From a virus (lineage: Duplodnaviria > Heunggongvirae > Uroviricota > Caudoviricetes), in the IMG/VR virus record IMGVR_UViG_2778261504_000003, positions 1-24,148 of that record: 24,148 bases of DNA, one strand, 5' to 3'. How positions within the stretch are numbered: position 1 is the stretch's first letter; each line of letters opens with the position of its first letter. Shown piece after piece: positions 8,232 to 11,319 of this stretch. The position numbers and the translations under genes are program-made. The notes beneath the pieces were generated by a model. That model was not told where the DNA came from, searched no databases, and saw only the letters and a list, made by a program, of their open reading frames with translations.

Positions 8232-8623
8232 AAAATGAAGTCGACAATGTTATCACTCTGGTACAGCCAAAATCAGAGGAGGAAGGACTCCTCAACGTTG
8301 TGATAACCGACGAAAAAAGTGTCGAGCAAAAATGCTGTCAGCATATCCGTACAACAATTTCAGAAGTGAATCGTACGATTACCTGCAAACGGTGTGGATT
8401 GGCTTTAGATCCGTTCGAACTTGTTCTCGACCGTGCGAGAAACGGTGAAAACATAGTGTCTGAGATTAAATCACTCTATGCAAAGCGGGATGCTCTTCGT
8501 GAAGCTGTGGCAAAACTTGAACGTGAAGAGAAAAATGCCAAAGCCCGGTTACGAGCAGCCAGGACAGCAATACTGTATGCGGAAAATGACCTTAAAAATA
8601 TTGAGCAGGAGGTGAATCGATGA
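8228..8623 (+). CDS. Hypothetical protein, Cys-pair plus C-terminal coiled-coil (131 aa)
   Basis: AGGAGG upstream; ATG overlaps the previous stop. CCQH ... CKRCG pairs; C-terminal KRDALREAVAKLEREEKNAKARLRAA heptads. Confidence 0.55.
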   Translation: MKNEVDNVITLVQPKSEEEGLLNVVITDEKSVEQKCCQHIRTTISEVNRTITCKRCGLALDPFELVLDRARNGENIVSEIKSLYAKRDALREAVAKLEREEKNAKARLRAARTAILYAENDLKNIEQEVNR

Positions 8624-8703
8624 CCTGGCCTGAAGCATTCACAACGGTAGGAATTGCGATGGCGGTGGCGCTGGTGGTGTATTCGATTTGCCGCTGGGGA
8701 TAA
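8620..8703 (+). CDS. Possible small hydrophobic peptide (27 aa), last gene before the terminator
   Basis: ATG overlaps the upstream stop (ATGA), AGGAGG 7 nt upstream. MTWPEAFTTVGIAMAVALVVYSICRWG has a single TM-like segment. Below the ORF-track size cut-off. Confidence 0.3.
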   Translation: MTWPEAFTTVGIAMAVALVVYSICRWG

Positions 8704-8708
8704 CAAAC

Positions 8709-8739
8709 AAAAACCCCGGATTGATGGTCCGGGGTTTTG
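8709..8739. terminator. Bidirectional intrinsic terminator separating the rightward early genes from the convergent toxin-antitoxin operon
   Basis: A-run, CCCCGGA, loop TTGATGG, TCCGGGG, then TTTT. U-tract available on both strands. Confidence 0.65.
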
Positions 8740-8759
8740 CTATTCATGGTGAATTTTTA

Positions 8760-9077
8760 TTAACAGATTGACTGAATTCCGTTTTTCTCAACCACAGAAA
8801 GCAAACGAAGGGCAGGGCCACCAGGGCGCTTTATTCCCCTTTCCCAGTCTGAAATGAGGTTTTTACTGACATTAAGATATCTGGCGAAAACAGGTTGAGA
8901 CAGATGCTCGCGCTCGCGAAGTGCCCGGATTCTTTCTGGCGACATTGTTGGCGCTGGTTGCAGACAGAGTTCATCAAACTCTCTCATAGTTTGTTTTGTA
9001 ACTGCGCCAATATCCTGAAGTGACTCCATCATTTCATGTACGGATGCAAGTGCATCACTGCGGTAATTTTTACTCAT
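8760..9077 (-). CDS. Type II antitoxin, XRE/HigA-like HTH DNA-binding protein (105 aa)
   Basis: C-terminal HTH SPERIRALREREHLSQPVFARYLNVSKNLISDWERGIKRP. Overlaps the 3' end of the upstream toxin gene by 8 nt. Confidence 0.75.
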   Translation of the reverse strand: MSKNYRSDALASVHEMMESLQDIGAVTKQTMREFDELCLQPAPTMSPERIRALREREHLSQPVFARYLNVSKNLISDWERGIKRPGGPALRLLSVVEKNGIQSIC

Positions 9078-9441
9078 TGGGTACCTCCGTAAACTGACCT
9101 TGCAGGATCAATTGCGCCAGTTGTTCATCAGTAAGATTGAGAACGTGATGCGCAGCTTTTCGAAATGCGTTTTCCTCGATGGCTGTAATATTTTCTCTCT
9201 CATTCTTTGCGTACGCATAGATGAAAAAAGCCTTTTCTGCGACGCGGTAAAAAATTATTGTCCTATAACCGCCTGATTTACCGCCACCTCTTCGGGCTAA
9301 TCGCTGCTTAATGACACCACTACCCAAATCTGCGGATATGAGTCCCTTATCAGCTAGTTCCACGACTTCTCGCAGAGCTTTATCGGAAATCCGATTTTTT
9401 CGTGCGAAGCGTTCAAACCAGGCATTTTTGAAAATGCGCAT
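9070..9441 (-). CDS. Type II toxin, RelE/ParE superfamily (HigB-like gene order, toxin first)
   Basis: Internal Met of track ORF 9070..9585 gives MRIFKNAWFERFARKNRISDKALREVVELADKGLISADLGSGVIKQRLARRGGGKSGGYRTIIFYRVAEKAFFIYAYAKNERENI..., typical of RelE/ParE-fold killer proteins paired with an HTH antidote. Alternative start 4 codons upstream. Confidence 0.75.
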   Translation of the reverse strand: MRIFKNAWFERFARKNRISDKALREVVELADKGLISADLGSGVIKQRLARRGGGKSGGYRTIIFYRVAEKAFFIYAYAKNERENITAIEENAFRKAAHHVLNLTDEQLAQLILQGQFTEVPNE

Positions 9442-9682
9442 GTTTGGTTCCATACCGTTGTGTAATACATAGTGTGACACAATTAAATAGGGCAGGCAAT
9501 ATCCATACAGAGGACTTGCTAAGGAATGGCGGCTCAAAAAACACTCTATTTTTAGAGTATACAAATGACAGAAAGAAAAAGTCATTGTTTTTTCTCATGA
9601 AATACGCATTTTTTGGGAGTGAAATCGTTATTTGTAGTGGATATATTCCAGCCATGTTTTATCCAATACCAGAGGTTTTACA

Positions 9683-9895
9683 ATGCAGAAGTTGATCGCC
9701 GCGAATTGTAAGTACGCAGTTATTCGTTGTGACGATATGTCGGTTGTAGCTGAAATGGATTGTTTTCCGGATGGAGCCAGAGCTGTATGGCATCGAAAAG
9801 GGAACATGCTTAGGGTAAGAGCTTTGCGGGCTGATGAGCGAATTGTATCGAAAACAGTGCTCAGGGAGATCGTGTATCAGTTTATGCGGACTTGA
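9683..9895 (+). CDS. Hypothetical protein (70 aa)
   Basis: ATG with AGAGG about 8 nt upstream; first plus-strand gene after the TA promoter region. Overlapped by an antisense ORF (9659..9925), so one of the two is spurious. Confidence 0.35.
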   Translation: MQKLIAANCKYAVIRCDDMSVVAEMDCFPDGARAVWHRKGNMLRVRALRADERIVSKTVLREIVYQFMRT

Positions 9896-9980
9896 ACAAG
9901 TTGTATGTATCAACAATAATGCCACCCAAAATGGCTGAACACCATTTTACCTGACAAAGATGCGCCAGCAGAGAAAACAG

Positions 9981-10259
9981 ATGGCGCACAAGACCAAATT
10001 ACACAATTCTGATAATTCAGCCGTCTTTGCCAGCAGGCACGGGCGGCGTTCTCACACATTCAAATATGACTGGTTCCAGCATGACCCCTGCACTGAAGAA
10101 CAGGCCGAATGGCTGATTCAGAACTACCGCAGACGTGGGTATGAGTTTGAGAAAGACCTCAGCCTTGACCGTCGCCACTGGATAATCTCCGTCAGGCTCC
10201 CTTATTCCGAACGTCCGCCGCGTCCGTCCCGCACATTCCAGCAACGCATCTGGAGGTAA
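9981..10259 (+). CDS. Hypothetical basic protein immediately upstream of DUF968
   Basis: Internal ATG of track ORF 9960..10259. Arg-rich; its last codons carry the GGAGG used by the downstream gene. No recognisable family. Confidence 0.4.
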   Translation: MAHKTKLHNSDNSAVFASRHGRRSHTFKYDWFQHDPCTEEQAEWLIQNYRRRGYEFEKDLSLDRRHWIISVRLPYSERPPRPSRTFQQRIWR

Positions 10260-10260
10260 C

Positions 10261-11319
10261 GTGCGGGTATTACTTCGACCTGTTCCGGTACCGGAACTCG
10301 GGCTGGTGGTCCTTAAGCCTGGTCGTGAATCCATGCAGGTATTTCATAACCCTCGAGTGCTGGTGGAGCCGGAACCGAAAAGCATGCGCGGTCTGCCGTC
10401 CGGGGTCGTTCCTGCCGTTCGCCAGCCGGTGGCGGAGGATAAATCATTACTGCCATTTTTCAGCGACGAACGAGTGATTCGTGCTGCTGGTGGCGCTGGC
10501 GCATTGTCTGACTGGTTACTGCGCCATGTTAAATCCTGCCAGTGGCCACACGGCGATTATCACCACAGTGAAACCGTCATTCACCGTTATGGTACCGGCG
10601 CAATGGTGTTGTGCTGGCACTGCGACAACCAGCTGCGTGACCAGACATCCGAATCACTCGAGCAACTTGCTCATCAAAACCTGTCAGCATGGATGATTGA
10701 CGTCATCGGTCACGCAATAAGCGGTACGCAGGAGCGTGAATTATCTCTGGCTGAATTATCCTGGTGGGCTGTCCGCAATCAGGTGGCGGACGCGCTACCG
10801 GAAGCGGTATTACGTCGTTCGCTGGGGTTGCGTGCGGAAAAAATCCGCTCAATGTACCGTGAAAGCGACATCGTACCGGGAGAGCAGACCGCTACCAGCA
10901 TACTGAAGCAGCGCACAAAAAATCTTGCGCCGTTGCTTCACACCCACCAGCCACAGAACCCAGCACAGGAAAAGACGGTGGTCAGTATTGCCGTTGATCC
11001 GGAGTCACCGGCTCAGTATATCCAGCGCCAGAAACCACAACGGGAAGAGATGCCTGTATACACGCGCTGGGTAAAAACGCAGAAATGCATGACGTGCGGT
11101 AATCAGGCAGATGATCCGCATCACATCATTGGTCATGGACTGGGAGGGATGGGAACAAAGGCGGATGATTTGTTTGTTATTCCGCTGTGCCGTAAATGTC
11201 ATAACGAACTGCACGCCGGGGTAAAAGATTTTGAAGAAAAACACGGCAGCCAGCTGTTGTTGCTGATTCGTTTTTTAATGCACGCGAGAAATTCGGGTGT
11301 CCTGAAGTGGAAAGCATGA
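10261..11319 (+). CDS. DUF968-family protein (YdfU-like) with C-terminal HNH-like Cys/His motif
   Basis: GTG 10261 preceded by GGAGG with a 4-nt spacer. C-terminus CMTCGN...HHIIGHGLGGMGTKADDLFVIPLCRKCHNELH. Position upstream of rusA and Q as in Qin. Confidence 0.75.
   Translation: MRVLLRPVPVPELGLVVLKPGRESMQVFHNPRVLVEPEPKSMRGLPSGVVPAVRQPVAEDKSLLPFFSDERVIRAAGGAGALSDWLLRHVKSCQWPHGDYHHSETVIHRYGTGAMVLCWHCDNQLRDQTSESLEQLAHQNLSAWMIDVIGHAISGTQERELSLAELSWWAVRNQVADALPEAVLRRSLGLRAEKIRSMYRESDIVPGEQTATSILKQRTKNLAPLLHTHQPQNPAQEKTVVSIAVDPESPAQYIQRQKPQREEMPVYTRWVKTQKCMTCGNQADDPHHIIGHGLGGMGTKADDLFVIPLCRKCHNELHAGVKDFEEKHGSQLLLLIRFLMHARNSGVLKWKA

What the first reader, a model, noticed from the sequence alone, without database searches (positions are those of the whole stretch)
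8709..9680. Reverse-strand RelE/ParE-type toxin plus HTH antitoxin moron in the early-right region
The pair sits on the opposite strand to every surrounding gene, is insulated from the rightward operon by a bidirectional terminator (8709-8739), and has its own AT-rich upstream region (9442-9680) with near-palindromic GTGTGACAC-type repeats that could be an autoregulatory operator. The toxin reading frame stays open for 48 codons upstream of the preferred Met. Prophage TA modules can act as abortive-infection or stabilisation cargo.
Basis: partly seen in the sequence, partly recalled or inferred. Interest (0 to 1): 0.5.

Follow-up and report, generated by a model that had tools for sequence, protein, structure and literature searches.

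The report
HigBA2-type toxin-antitoxin pair in prophage
This is an ordinary, already annotated toxin-antitoxin gene pair of the HigB2/HigA2 (Pfam RelE, PF06296) family. It is carried as exchangeable cargo in an E. coli lambda-like prophage, at a site where related prophages carry other toxin-antitoxin systems.

Summary
Two overlapping minus-strand genes, a 123-aa toxin (9441..9070) and a 105-aa HTH antitoxin (9077..8760), lie between plus-strand prophage genes. A strong hairpin terminator (8710-8738) follows them, and a 35%-GC region with one 19-bp imperfect palindrome (9461-9479) precedes them.

The toxin matches Pfam PF06296 'RelE' end to end (159.7 bits). For both proteins the best solved relatives are Vibrio cholerae HigB2 and HigA2. 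All five HigB2 active-site residues are present. The closest experimentally validated relative is Coxiella ToxP/AntitoxP (43% and 44% identity).

The 48-codon upstream extension is not coding. The palindrome is conserved at the same position in about 70 relatives from many phyla, with the geometry of the mapped HigA2 operator. It is therefore very likely the autoregulatory operator.

The pair sits in a variable slot (8707-9960). Related prophages with the same flanks carry hokD-rem, ParDE or Phd/Doc-like genes there, and K-12 Qin carries relBE-hokD.

The exact proteins are in RefSeq, annotated as a RelE/ParE toxin and an HTH protein. About 4% of complete E. coli genomes carry the module.

Toxicity and any role in phage defence or prophage stabilisation remain untested.

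The parts
8710..8738 (.). GC-rich hairpin terminator, 21 nt past the antitoxin stop and 4 nt past the stop of the upstream + strand small ORF. It ends the TA operon and probably attenuates rightward early transcription.
   Evidence: Scan hit on the - strand. It folds at -19.9 kcal/mol (+) and -20.5 kcal/mol (-), z -2.9 and -3.95. It lies inside the variable cassette, because flank homology ends at 8703-8706.
8760..9077 (-). HigA2-like antitoxin and autorepressor, 105 aa. The N-terminal region (about residues 1-43) is presumed to neutralise the toxin. The C-terminal part (residues 44-105) is an XRE HTH domain. A GGAGG Shine-Dalgarno at 9088-9084 lies inside the toxin gene.
   Evidence: Pfam HTH_3 and HTH_31. 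The best PDB match by sequence is HigA-2, E 9e-8. The AF2 model has pLDDT 79.9, and its C-terminal domain superposes on the HigA2 C-terminal domain at 0.5-0.8 A with 38% identity. It is 44% identical to Coxiella AntitoxP. A homolog lies directly downstream of the toxin gene in 77 of 80 relatives.
9070..9441 (-). HigB2-like toxin, 123 aa. It is a predicted ribosome-dependent mRNA endonuclease of the RelE/ParE superfamily (Pfam PF06296).
   Evidence: PF06296 at 159.7 bits, profile positions 1-120 of 120. PDB hits are HigB-2. AF2 pLDDT is 82.5, and the Foldseek top six are all VcHigB2, prob 0.99-1.0. K45, R47, R60, Y77 and K79 align with the VcHigB2 active-site residues K49, R51, R64, Y82 and K84 (PMC5416850; PMC10098735). 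It is 43% identical to Coxiella ToxP.
9461..9479 (.). 19-bp imperfect palindrome TGTCACAC-TAT-GTATTACA, the predicted HigA2-type operator. It ends 19 nt before the toxin ATG.
   Evidence: Inverted repeat. It is unique in the window, with 0.01 expected. It is conserved in L002, L003 and L004, although the rest of the L002 upstream region is unrelated. The family motif TRTMAYAC-N3-GTRTKAYA lies 13-38 nt upstream of the start codon in about 70 of 77 relatives. It has the same 19-bp geometry as the footprinted VcHigA2 operator TGTACGC-N5-GCGTACA (PMC11006873).
9471..9499 (-). Candidate TA promoter: -35 TTGCCT (9499-9494), a 17-nt spacer, and an extended -10 TGT-CACACT (9479-9471) that overlaps the left operator arm. 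The predicted transcription start is near 9464. This is weak and inferred.
   Evidence: Read directly from the sequence. It matches 7 of 12 consensus positions. TTGCCT is conserved in L003 and L004. Relatives show TTGnnn-17/18-(A/C)A(C/T)ACT, or alternatively TTGAAC-17-TAGAAT around the palindrome. The consensus scan did not report it.
9556..9585 (-). Upstream promoter-like site ATGACT-18-TATACT, of unknown role. It could be a second TA promoter or a remnant.
   Evidence: Scan hit at 9 of 12. It is conserved in L003 and L004 but absent from PhiR12_3. It is flanked by the inverted repeat 9536-9553 / 9576-9593.
9683..9895 (+). Divergent 70-aa ORF inside the same variable cassette, function unknown. 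It is probably a real gene.
   Evidence: phrog_1813, E 6.9e-16. An AGAGG Shine-Dalgarno lies 7 nt upstream. RefSeq does not annotate it. It is not homologous to the ORF at this position in L004.
8707..9960 (.). Variable cargo slot of the prophage, between the conserved phrog_1621/small-ORF flank and the phrog_1212-DUF968-RusA-Q flank. This is the 'moron' cassette.
   Evidence: Flank homology of 91-97% ends at 8703/8706 and resumes at 9961/9964 in L087 (hokD+rem) and L088 (ParDE). The right flank also matches K-12 Qin downstream of relBE-hokD-rem.

Best explanation
The locus is an intact type II toxin-antitoxin operon of the HigBA2 family (toxin Pfam PF06296). It is carried as a self-contained cargo cassette in a Qin/Rac-like lambdoid prophage of E. 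coli.

Shown here:
- Family membership of both proteins.
- Toxin-first order with an 8-nt overlap and a strong Shine-Dalgarno for the antitoxin.
- A terminator after the pair.
- A family-wide conserved palindrome just upstream.

Inferred from characterised relatives (V. cholerae HigBA2 and Coxiella ToxP/AntitoxP):
- A weak promoter overlapping the palindrome makes one bicistronic mRNA.
- The antitoxin dimer binds the palindrome through its C-terminal HTH domains and represses the operon.
- The antitoxin N-terminal region wraps the toxin and keeps it off the ribosome.
- When antitoxin synthesis stops or it is degraded, the free toxin enters the ribosomal A site and cleaves mRNA. Translation stops and growth arrests.

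The biological pay-off in the prophage is not resolved by sequence. Candidates are stabilisation of the element, exclusion of other phages, or simple selfish persistence.
For: - Toxin family: PF06296 full-length match, 159.7 bits against a cutoff of 27. The best PDB sequence matches of both proteins are HigB-2 and HigA-2.
- Folds: the AF2 models (pLDDT 82.5 and 79.9) have HigB2 and HigA2 as top structural hits. The HTH domain superposes at 0.5-0.8 A.
- Active site: K45, R47, R60, Y77 and K79 align to K49, R51, R64, Y82 and K84. K45, R60 and K79 are invariant and R47 is at least 90% conserved in 30 homologs. Y77 is Phe in most of them (PMC5416850; PMC10098735).
- Validated relative: 43% and 44% identity to the experimentally validated ToxP and AntitoxP (PMC10098735).
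- Synteny: an antitoxin homolog lies directly downstream in 77 of 80 relatives.
- Operator: the motif is conserved (score at least 10 in 39 loci against 1.4 in shuffles). It is unique in the window. Its geometry equals the footprinted VcHigA2 operator, which spans the -35 to -10 region (PMC11006873). The Coxiella upstream region shows TTGACA-17-TATAGT around a matching palindrome.
- Terminator.
- Cassette nature.
- Intactness: both ORFs are intact, and the locus is 98.4-100% identical in 10 other complete genomes.
Against: - Nothing functional was measured. Toxicity, neutralisation, RNA cleavage and DNA binding are all inferred.
- The window's promoter is weak by consensus (7 of 12) and the promoter scan did not find it. 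The right operator arm has two departures from the family consensus (GTAT for GTGT, TACA for TATA).
- The residue aligned to the catalytic Tyr82 (Y77) is Phe in most homologs, and the invariant Tyr is Y75. The exact catalytic assignment is therefore uncertain.
- The N-terminal neutralising region has no detectable sequence similarity to VcHigA2, and its model confidence is only moderate (pLDDT 57-75).
- The toxin gene is broken in 9 of 60 sampled E. coli carriers of the related allele and in phage PhiR12_3. Selection to keep the toxin is therefore not universal.
Confidence: 0.85

Rival explanations
1. The module's main role is anti-phage abortive infection, or exclusion of superinfecting phages. 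Infection shuts off host transcription or triggers antitoxin loss, and the freed mRNase then halts translation before the invader completes its cycle. This concerns the biological role and is compatible with the mechanism above.
For: It is prophage cargo in a slot that collects toxin-antitoxin systems of at least five families. Both proteins belong to phage protein families (phrog_5869 and phrog_2104). A 2025 review treats RelE/ParE-superfamily toxins as defence toxins (PMC11980606).
Against: The toxin has no hit in PADLOC, and the antitoxin hits only generic HTH models. None of the papers read here reports defence by a PF06296 member. The toxin is pseudogenised in about 15% of sampled carriers. 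Only one of 50,697 phage records carries the module, and its toxin is frameshifted.
Confidence: 0.2
2. The pair is a decaying or domesticated remnant. The toxin is no longer toxic, and the HTH protein acts only as a transcription factor, for itself or for prophage genes.
For: Toxin genes are split or frameshifted in related alleles while the antitoxin stays intact. The antitoxin is more conserved than the toxin in 72 of 74 pairs. The window's operator arm and promoter are degenerate.
Against: In the window allele both ORFs are intact, and all five active-site positions are retained. The allele is 98.4-100% identical across 11 genomes. The operator motif occurs nowhere else in the 24-kb window, so no second target is evident.
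Confidence: 0.07
3. The toxin is a ParE-type gyrase poison rather than a RelE-type mRNase.
For: RefSeq names it only as a 'RelE/ParE family toxin'. The two classes share one fold.
Against: Only PF06296 is hit, with no PF05016 (ParE_toxin) match at E up to 0.01. The top sequence and structure matches are HigB2, with ParE structures far down the list (prob 0.3 or less). The RelE-like catalytic K/R/R/Y/K set is present. The validated relatives inhibit translation (PMC5416850; PMC10098735).
Confidence: 0.03

Closest known systems
Coxiella burnetii QpH1 plasmid ToxP/AntitoxP (CBUA0028/CBUA0027)
   Same: The toxin is 43% identical over 120 aa, and the antitoxin 44% over 96 aa including the N-terminal region. 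The gene order is toxin first with overlapping genes. An upstream palindrome is embedded in a -35/-10 pair. Experiments showed toxicity rescued by the antitoxin, inhibition of translation, and antitoxin binding to the promoter (PMC10098735). Its annotated toxin ORF is also over-extended at the N-terminus.
   Different: It is plasmid-borne and serves plasmid maintenance in an obligate intracellular pathogen. The module here is prophage cargo on the opposite strand to the phage genes. The operator half-sites differ (TTCAC/GTGA against TCACAC/GTATTA).
Vibrio cholerae HigB2/HigA2 (superintegron; PDB 5JA8, 5JAA, 8A0X)
   Same: It belongs to the same Pfam family (PF06296, per PMC11980606). It gives the best solved-structure matches for both proteins. 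The active-site residues are conserved. The antitoxin has an N-terminal neutralising segment and a C-terminal HTH dimer. It has a single 19-bp inverted-repeat operator overlapping the promoter (PMC11006873).
   Different: Identity is only about 25-27% for the toxin, and 38% for the HTH domain. The window toxin is 13 aa longer at the C-terminus. The four base-contacting residues of HigA2 (R68, E71, N72, R77) are N, S, D and I here (alignment), so the operator sequence differs. The N-terminal antitoxin region shows no sequence similarity.
E. coli K-12 RelBE (with hokD) in the cryptic prophage Qin
   Same: It occupies the equivalent position of a related prophage, just upstream of the DUF968 (ydfU) and Q-like genes (right-flank homology). 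The toxin is likewise a ribosome-dependent mRNase of the same superfamily.
   Different: The Pfam family differs (PF05016). The gene order is antitoxin first. The antitoxin is a ribbon-helix-helix protein. It is co-directional with the phage genes rather than on the opposite strand.
Proteus vulgaris Rts1 HigB/HigA
   Same: Toxin-first gene order, an HTH antitoxin, and a RelE-superfamily mRNase toxin.
   Different: The toxin family and active site differ, and the toxin lacks the C-terminal helix. The antitoxin does not neutralise through an N-terminal disordered segment (PMC5416850).

Membership tests
Pfam PF06296 'RelE' (HigB2-type toxins of the RelE/ParE superfamily) | Full-length match to the family profile above the gathering score | tested here: met
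   159.7 bits against a cutoff of 27, residues 1-120 on profile positions 1-120 of 120. All 120 listed homologs carry PF06296.
Pfam PF06296 'RelE' (HigB2-type toxins of the RelE/ParE superfamily) | RelE/BECR fold resembling HigB2 | tested here: met
   The AF2 model has pLDDT 82.5. The Foldseek top six hits are VcHigB2 chains (prob 0.99-1.0, TM 0.49-0.63), followed by HigB1, YoeB, RelE, YafQ and ParE. TM-scores are moderate.
Pfam PF06296 'RelE' (HigB2-type toxins of the RelE/ParE superfamily) | Active-site residues equivalent to VcHigB2 K49, R51, R64, Y82, K84 | tested here: met
   The HMMER alignment maps them to K45, R47, R60, Y77 and K79. K45, R60 and K79 are invariant and R47 is at least 90% conserved. 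Y77 is Phe in many homologs, and the invariant Tyr is Y75.
Pfam PF06296 'RelE' (HigB2-type toxins of the RelE/ParE superfamily) | Ribosome-dependent mRNA cleavage and growth arrest | not testable with these tools
   Known only for the relatives VcHigB2 and ToxP (PMC5416850; PMC10098735).
HigBA2-type type II TA operon | Toxin gene first, with the HTH antitoxin gene immediately downstream and overlapping | tested here: met
   The genes overlap by 8 nt here. An antitoxin homolog lies directly downstream on the same strand in 77 of 80 relatives, and the other three loci end at a contig edge.
HigBA2-type type II TA operon | Antitoxin with a C-terminal XRE HTH dimerisation and DNA-binding domain like HigA2 | tested here: met
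   phmmer E 9e-8 to HigA-2. Foldseek gives rmsd 0.5-0.8 A over 55-57 residues at 38% identity against 5J9I.
HigBA2-type type II TA operon | N-terminal toxin-neutralising segment in the antitoxin | tested here: inconclusive
   Residues 1-43 precede the HTH domain and are conserved in the family. They align with AntitoxP from residue 10. There is no similarity to the VcHigA2 N-terminus, and the model there has pLDDT 57-75 with two helices. No complex was modelled.
HigBA2-type type II TA operon | A single inverted-repeat operator overlapping the operon promoter | tested here: met
   The palindrome at 9461-9479 is present, unique in the window and conserved across the family. It overlaps promoter-like hexamers in the window and in relatives. 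Actual binding and repression are not testable here.
ParE gyrase-poison toxins (PF05016) | Match to the ParE_toxin profile; absence of RNase catalytic residues | tested here: not met
   No PF05016 hit at E up to 0.01. The catalytic set is present. ParE structures rank low.
MqsA-family antitoxins (TIGR03830) | N-terminal CxxC...CxxC zinc domain plus HTH, scoring above the family cutoff | tested here: not met
   31.8 bits against a cutoff of 61.8, with only the HTH part aligned. The N-terminus has no CxxC pairs (sequence).
Phage 'moron' (autonomous cargo cassette) | Inserted between conserved phage genes, variably present, with its own promoter and terminator | tested here: met
   The flanks are conserved at 91-97% while the slot content differs. 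The terminator lies within the cassette. A promoter-like region with an operator is present. The promoter is predicted, not mapped.
Known anti-phage defence systems (PADLOC-DB) | Match of the effector to a defence-system model | tested here: not met
   The toxin has no hit. The antitoxin matches only generic HTH models such as RmrA, control protein and capH, at E 3e-5 or weaker.

The most novel reading that the evidence does not exclude
The site between the nin-like genes and the DUF968-RusA-Q block of Qin/Rac-like lambdoid prophages may be a dedicated, recombination-delimited hot spot. It would be marked on its left by a conserved 86-nt segment encoding a 28-aa membrane peptide, and it would exchange toxin-antitoxin or defence cargo.

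Here the HigBA2-type pair faces the phage's rightward transcription. It could therefore act as an induction-coupled or infection-coupled switch. Antiterminated early transcription running antisense through the operon would shut off antitoxin supply and release the mRNase.
Probability: 0.12. Interest if true: 0.45.

Novelty: already known. Interest (0 to 1): 0.15.

Why it matters
It matters little for discovery. The exact proteins are already in RefSeq (WP_001217946.1 and WP_000042399.1), annotated as a RelE/ParE-family toxin and an HTH protein. The family has solved structures and two experimentally validated members.

The useful outcomes are practical:
- The correct start codon is the one giving the 123-aa protein. 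Some records annotate the 171-aa form.
- The subfamily is assigned as HigB2-type mRNase, not ParE.
- The closest validated relative is named (Coxiella ToxP/AntitoxP).
- A concrete operator prediction can be tested by EMSA.

A modest wider point is that this prophage position exchanges at least five TA families (hok, RelBE, ParDE, Phd/Doc-like and HigBA2-like). That could guide searches for prophage-borne defence or addiction cargo in E. coli, including STEC lineages, where the related allele is common.

Tried and rejected
- The long 171-aa reading of the toxin was rejected. The profile starts at Met49, relatives are 120-129 aa, and the frame is closed in the sister allele. An in-frame ATG four codons upstream (9453) cannot be fully excluded, but it lies at or before the predicted transcription start. 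The sister alleles in L004 and L002 have no in-frame ATG there.
- NCBIfam gave no family for the toxin.
- PADLOC gave no toxin hit.
- Rfam gave nothing near its thresholds in 8400-10300, so no known RNA element or type I/III antitoxin RNA was found.
- The ParE and MqsA assignments were rejected (see the membership table).
- The promoter could not be fixed from sequence. Two architectures occur in relatives: the -10 in the left operator arm, or the -35 just upstream with the -10 at the right arm. The window fits the first only weakly, and the counts have no chance control, so I do not rely on them.
- The divergent ORF 9683-9895 and the 99-aa ORF 9960-10259 are not homologous to the ORFs at the same positions in L004 or to K-12 Rem.
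- Literature searches for COG4737 and DUF1044 led nowhere useful.
- A literature search for this module in O157 prophages found only the unrelated paaR2-paaA2-parE2 system.
Full report
**What is there**

The window is a lambdoid prophage of E. coli of the Qin/Rac type. Strain JB2 matches 98% of the window at 99.0% identity. Its RefSeq annotation reads as follows:
- an exonuclease, kil and the ydfABC genes on one side;
- a DicA-like repressor facing a cro-like gene;
- YdaT and replication genes, and a string of small nin-like genes;
- DUF968, RusA and a Q-like antiterminator;
- a methyltransferase, lysis genes, terminase, portal, capsid and tail genes.

All genes from the cro-like gene to the tail are on the + strand, except two. 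These are 8760..9077(-) at 105 aa and 9070..9441(-) at 123 aa. RefSeq already names them 'helix-turn-helix domain-containing protein' (WP_000042399.1) and 'type II toxin-antitoxin system RelE/ParE family toxin' (WP_001217946.1). The exact toxin sequence has been seen on 773 contigs and the antitoxin on 957.

**Checking the observation**

- The two genes overlap by 8 nt (ATGAGTAA). A GGAGG Shine-Dalgarno for the second gene lies inside the first.
- A hairpin at 8710-8738 lies 21 nt beyond the antitoxin stop. It folds at about -20 kcal/mol on either strand, z -2.9 and -3.95. Its T tract is better for the minus-strand transcript, so it is a good terminator for the pair and a plausible but weaker one for rightward transcription.
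- The 240 bp upstream of the toxin gene has 35% GC, against 42-59% around it.
- That region holds one imperfect palindrome, not several repeats. The arms are 9458-9468 and 9472-9482.
- The reading frame is indeed open for 48 codons above the Met at 9441, but that stretch is not coding. The Pfam profile begins exactly at that Met. The homologs are 120-129 aa. In the 85%-identical sister allele a TAA closes the frame six codons upstream. The extension would also run across the operator.
- Some public records do carry the 171-aa call. The Coxiella homolog is over-extended in the same way.

**What the proteins are**

The toxin:
- It matches Pfam PF06296 ('RelE') over the whole profile at 159.7 bits, and no other toxin family at E up to 0.01.
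- Gerdes (2025, PMC11980606) lists PF06296 as the family that contains V. cholerae HigB2. That family has toxin-first gene order and ribosome-dependent mRNA cleavage.
- Against all PDB sequences, the best hits are HigB-2 chains.
- An AlphaFold model built on 30 homologs (pLDDT 82.5) finds VcHigB2 chains as its six best structural matches. HigB1, YoeB, RelE, YafQ and ParE follow at lower scores.
- The five residues reported to form the HigB2 active site are K49, R51, R64, Y82 and K84 (PMC5416850; PMC10098735). They align with K45, R47, R60, Y77 and K79. K45, R60 and K79 are invariant and R47 is nearly invariant in the homolog alignment.
- One caveat: position 77 is Phe in most homologs, and the invariant Tyr is two residues earlier (Y75).

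The antitoxin:
- It carries an XRE-type HTH domain.
- Its best PDB matches are HigA-2 (E 9e-8).
- Its modelled C-terminal domain superposes on the HigA2 C-terminal domain at 0.5-0.8 A with 38% identity.
- The N-terminal 43 residues are conserved within the family. They show no similarity to VcHigA2 and are modelled with only moderate confidence. Their role as the toxin-binding segment is therefore inferred by analogy.

The closest experimentally studied relative is not the Vibrio system. It is ToxP/AntitoxP of the Coxiella burnetii plasmid QpH1, at 43% identity over 120 aa for the toxin and 44% over 96 aa for the antitoxin. For that pair, experiments showed toxicity rescued by the antitoxin, inhibition of translation, toxin-antitoxin binding and promoter binding (PMC10098735).

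**The operator**

The palindrome is the only non-coding stretch shared by the window, the sister allele in STEC prophages (L003, L004) and phage PhiR12_3 (L002). In PhiR12_3 the rest of the upstream region is unrelated.

I then fetched 80 loci that encode toxin relatives from genomes of many phyla.
- In 77 of them a homolog of the antitoxin follows directly on the same strand. The other three loci end at a contig edge.
- About 70 of 77 upstream regions contain the same 19-bp motif, TRTMAYAC-N3-GTRTKAYA. It lies 13-38 nt (median 24) before the start codon.
- A score of at least 10 was reached in 39 regions, against 1.4 in shuffled controls.
- In the window the motif occurs once (9461-9479), where 0.01 is expected by chance.

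This conservation fits the near-invariance of the antitoxin's HTH segment across the family. The footprinted V. cholerae HigA2 operator is also a single 19-bp inverted repeat, TGTACGC-N5-GCGTACA. It starts after the -35 element and extends over the -10 element (PMC11006873). The four base-contacting residues of HigA2 differ here (N, S, D, I against R, E, N, R; alignment). That agrees with the different inner bases.

In many relatives, and in Coxiella, a -35 hexamer sits just 5' of the palindrome and a -10 overlaps its 3' arm, for example TTGAAC-17-TAGAAT. In others the left arm itself reads as an extended -10 with TTGnnn 17-18 nt upstream.

The window fits the second pattern: TTGCCT (9499-9494), a 17-nt spacer, then TGT-CACACT (9479-9471). 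This matches only 7 of 12 consensus positions and the promoter scan did not report it. The promoter assignment is therefore a prediction. A second promoter-like site, ATGACT-18-TATACT (9585-9556), is conserved in the sister allele but absent from PhiR12_3. Its role is unknown.

**Cargo status**

The flanks of the pair are conserved at 91-97% in prophages whose intervening DNA is different. Homology stops at 8703-8706 and resumes at 9961-9964. The slot holds:
- hokD and rem in L087;
- a ParD/ParE pair, also on the reverse strand, in L088;
- hokD, a small ORF with a Doc-family toxin, and the HigBA2-type pair in L089;
- relB-relE-hokD-rem in K-12 Qin.

In PhiR12_3 the module sits in a quite different place, near the integrase.

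The pair is therefore an exchangeable cassette, a moron in Hendrix's sense. The position is a collecting point for toxin-antitoxin systems. The cassette in the window spans 8707-9960. It also contains a divergent 70-aa ORF (9683-9895) with a good Shine-Dalgarno and a PHROG match (phrog_1813, E 7e-16), which RefSeq does not annotate.

**Distribution**

- 215 of 5426 complete E. coli genomes carry a module at least 80% identical. All copies are chromosomal.
- The window allele (at least 99% identical) is in 10 genomes, mostly poultry isolates.
- The common allele (about 85% identical) is frequent in O157:H7, O145, O103 and other STEC. O104:H4 carries an allele about 80% identical.
- In 9 of 60 sampled genomes the toxin gene is split into two CDS. 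In PhiR12_3 it is frameshifted while the antitoxin is intact.
- More distant family members are on 204 plasmid records, including 19 from Coxiella.
- Only one of 50,697 deposited phage genomes carries the module.

**How it most likely works**

Shown by this analysis: family membership, active-site conservation, gene order and coupling, the terminator, the conserved operator and the cassette nature.

Inferred from V. cholerae HigBA2 and Coxiella ToxP/AntitoxP:
- One bicistronic mRNA starts at a weak, operator-overlapped promoter.
- The antitoxin is translated better than the toxin. It has a GGAGG Shine-Dalgarno, while the toxin's is weak. In relatives, 48 of 70 toxin genes even start with GTG or TTG.
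- The antitoxin dimer, alone or with toxin, represses the promoter.
- The N-terminal segment of the antitoxin holds the toxin off the ribosome.
- Loss of antitoxin frees an A-site mRNA endonuclease, which arrests translation.

Sequence cannot say what this does for the prophage. Stabilisation, exclusion of other phages and selfish persistence all remain open.

PADLOC has no model that matches the toxin. None of the papers I read reports defence by a member of this family.

One speculative point follows from the orientation. Antiterminated rightward transcription heading for the Q gene must pass the hairpin and then run antisense through the operon. This could lower antitoxin supply during induction. 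I have no evidence for it.

**Verdict**

The finding is an already annotated member of a well-characterised family. Novelty is 'already known' and interest is low. The refinements are:
- the subfamily is HigB2/HigA2, with ToxP/AntitoxP as the closest validated relative;
- the long ORF is rejected;
- the operator is identified with comparative support;
- the prophage position is recognised as a toxin-antitoxin hot spot.

Noticed in passing
window 8620-8706 (+): An unannotated 28-aa hydrophobic ORF (MTWPEAFTTVGIAMAVALVVYSICRWG) is ATGA-coupled to the preceding phrog_1621 gene. Its DNA (8618-8703) is 88-98% conserved and forms the left junction of the variable cargo slot in L003, L004, L087, L088 and L089. 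It has no PHROG hit.
   Followed up: partly
window 9683-9895 (+): A 70-aa ORF has an AGAGG Shine-Dalgarno and a match to phrog_1813 (E 6.9e-16). RefSeq does not annotate it. It lies inside the variable cassette, divergent from the toxin gene, with a promoter-like site at 9619-9647. It is not homologous to the ORF at this position in the sister allele.
   Followed up: partly
window 8707-9960; L087, L088, L089, L005: The same prophage position holds hokD+rem, ParD/ParE, hokD+Doc-family toxin+HigBA2-type pair, or relBE-hokD-rem (K-12 Qin) in related prophages. It is a hot spot that exchanges at least five TA families.
   Followed up: partly
L006-L085 (relatives), window 8760-9441: The antitoxin is more conserved than the toxin in 72 of 74 pairs (mean identity 70% against 60%), although the loci were selected by toxin similarity. 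The HTH segment is nearly invariant, and the operator motif is conserved across phyla.
   Followed up: partly
E. coli genomes; L002 6415-6669; L003 6299-6671: The toxin gene of the related allele is split into two CDS in 9 of 60 sampled genomes. It is frameshifted in phage PhiR12_3 while the antitoxin stays intact.
   Followed up: partly
window 9556-9593 (-): The promoter-like site ATGACT-18-TATACT is conserved in L003 and L004 but not in PhiR12_3. It is bracketed by an 18-nt inverted repeat (9536-9553 / 9576-9593). It lies about 100 nt upstream of the operator. Its role is unknown.
   Followed up: no
L006-L085, toxin start codons: 48 of 70 relatives start the toxin gene with GTG or TTG. The window uses ATG with a weak Shine-Dalgarno, while the antitoxin has GGAGG. 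This is consistent with keeping toxin translation below that of the antitoxin in a toxin-first operon.
   Followed up: no
L090 25720-26175 (-) (Coxiella QpH1 CBUA0028): The annotated 151-aa ToxP starts 30 codons upstream of the conserved MRIFK start. This is the same kind of N-terminal over-call as the 171-aa ORF in the window. The true start is preceded by TTGACA-17-TATAGT around a TTCAC-TTA-GTGA palindrome.
   Followed up: no
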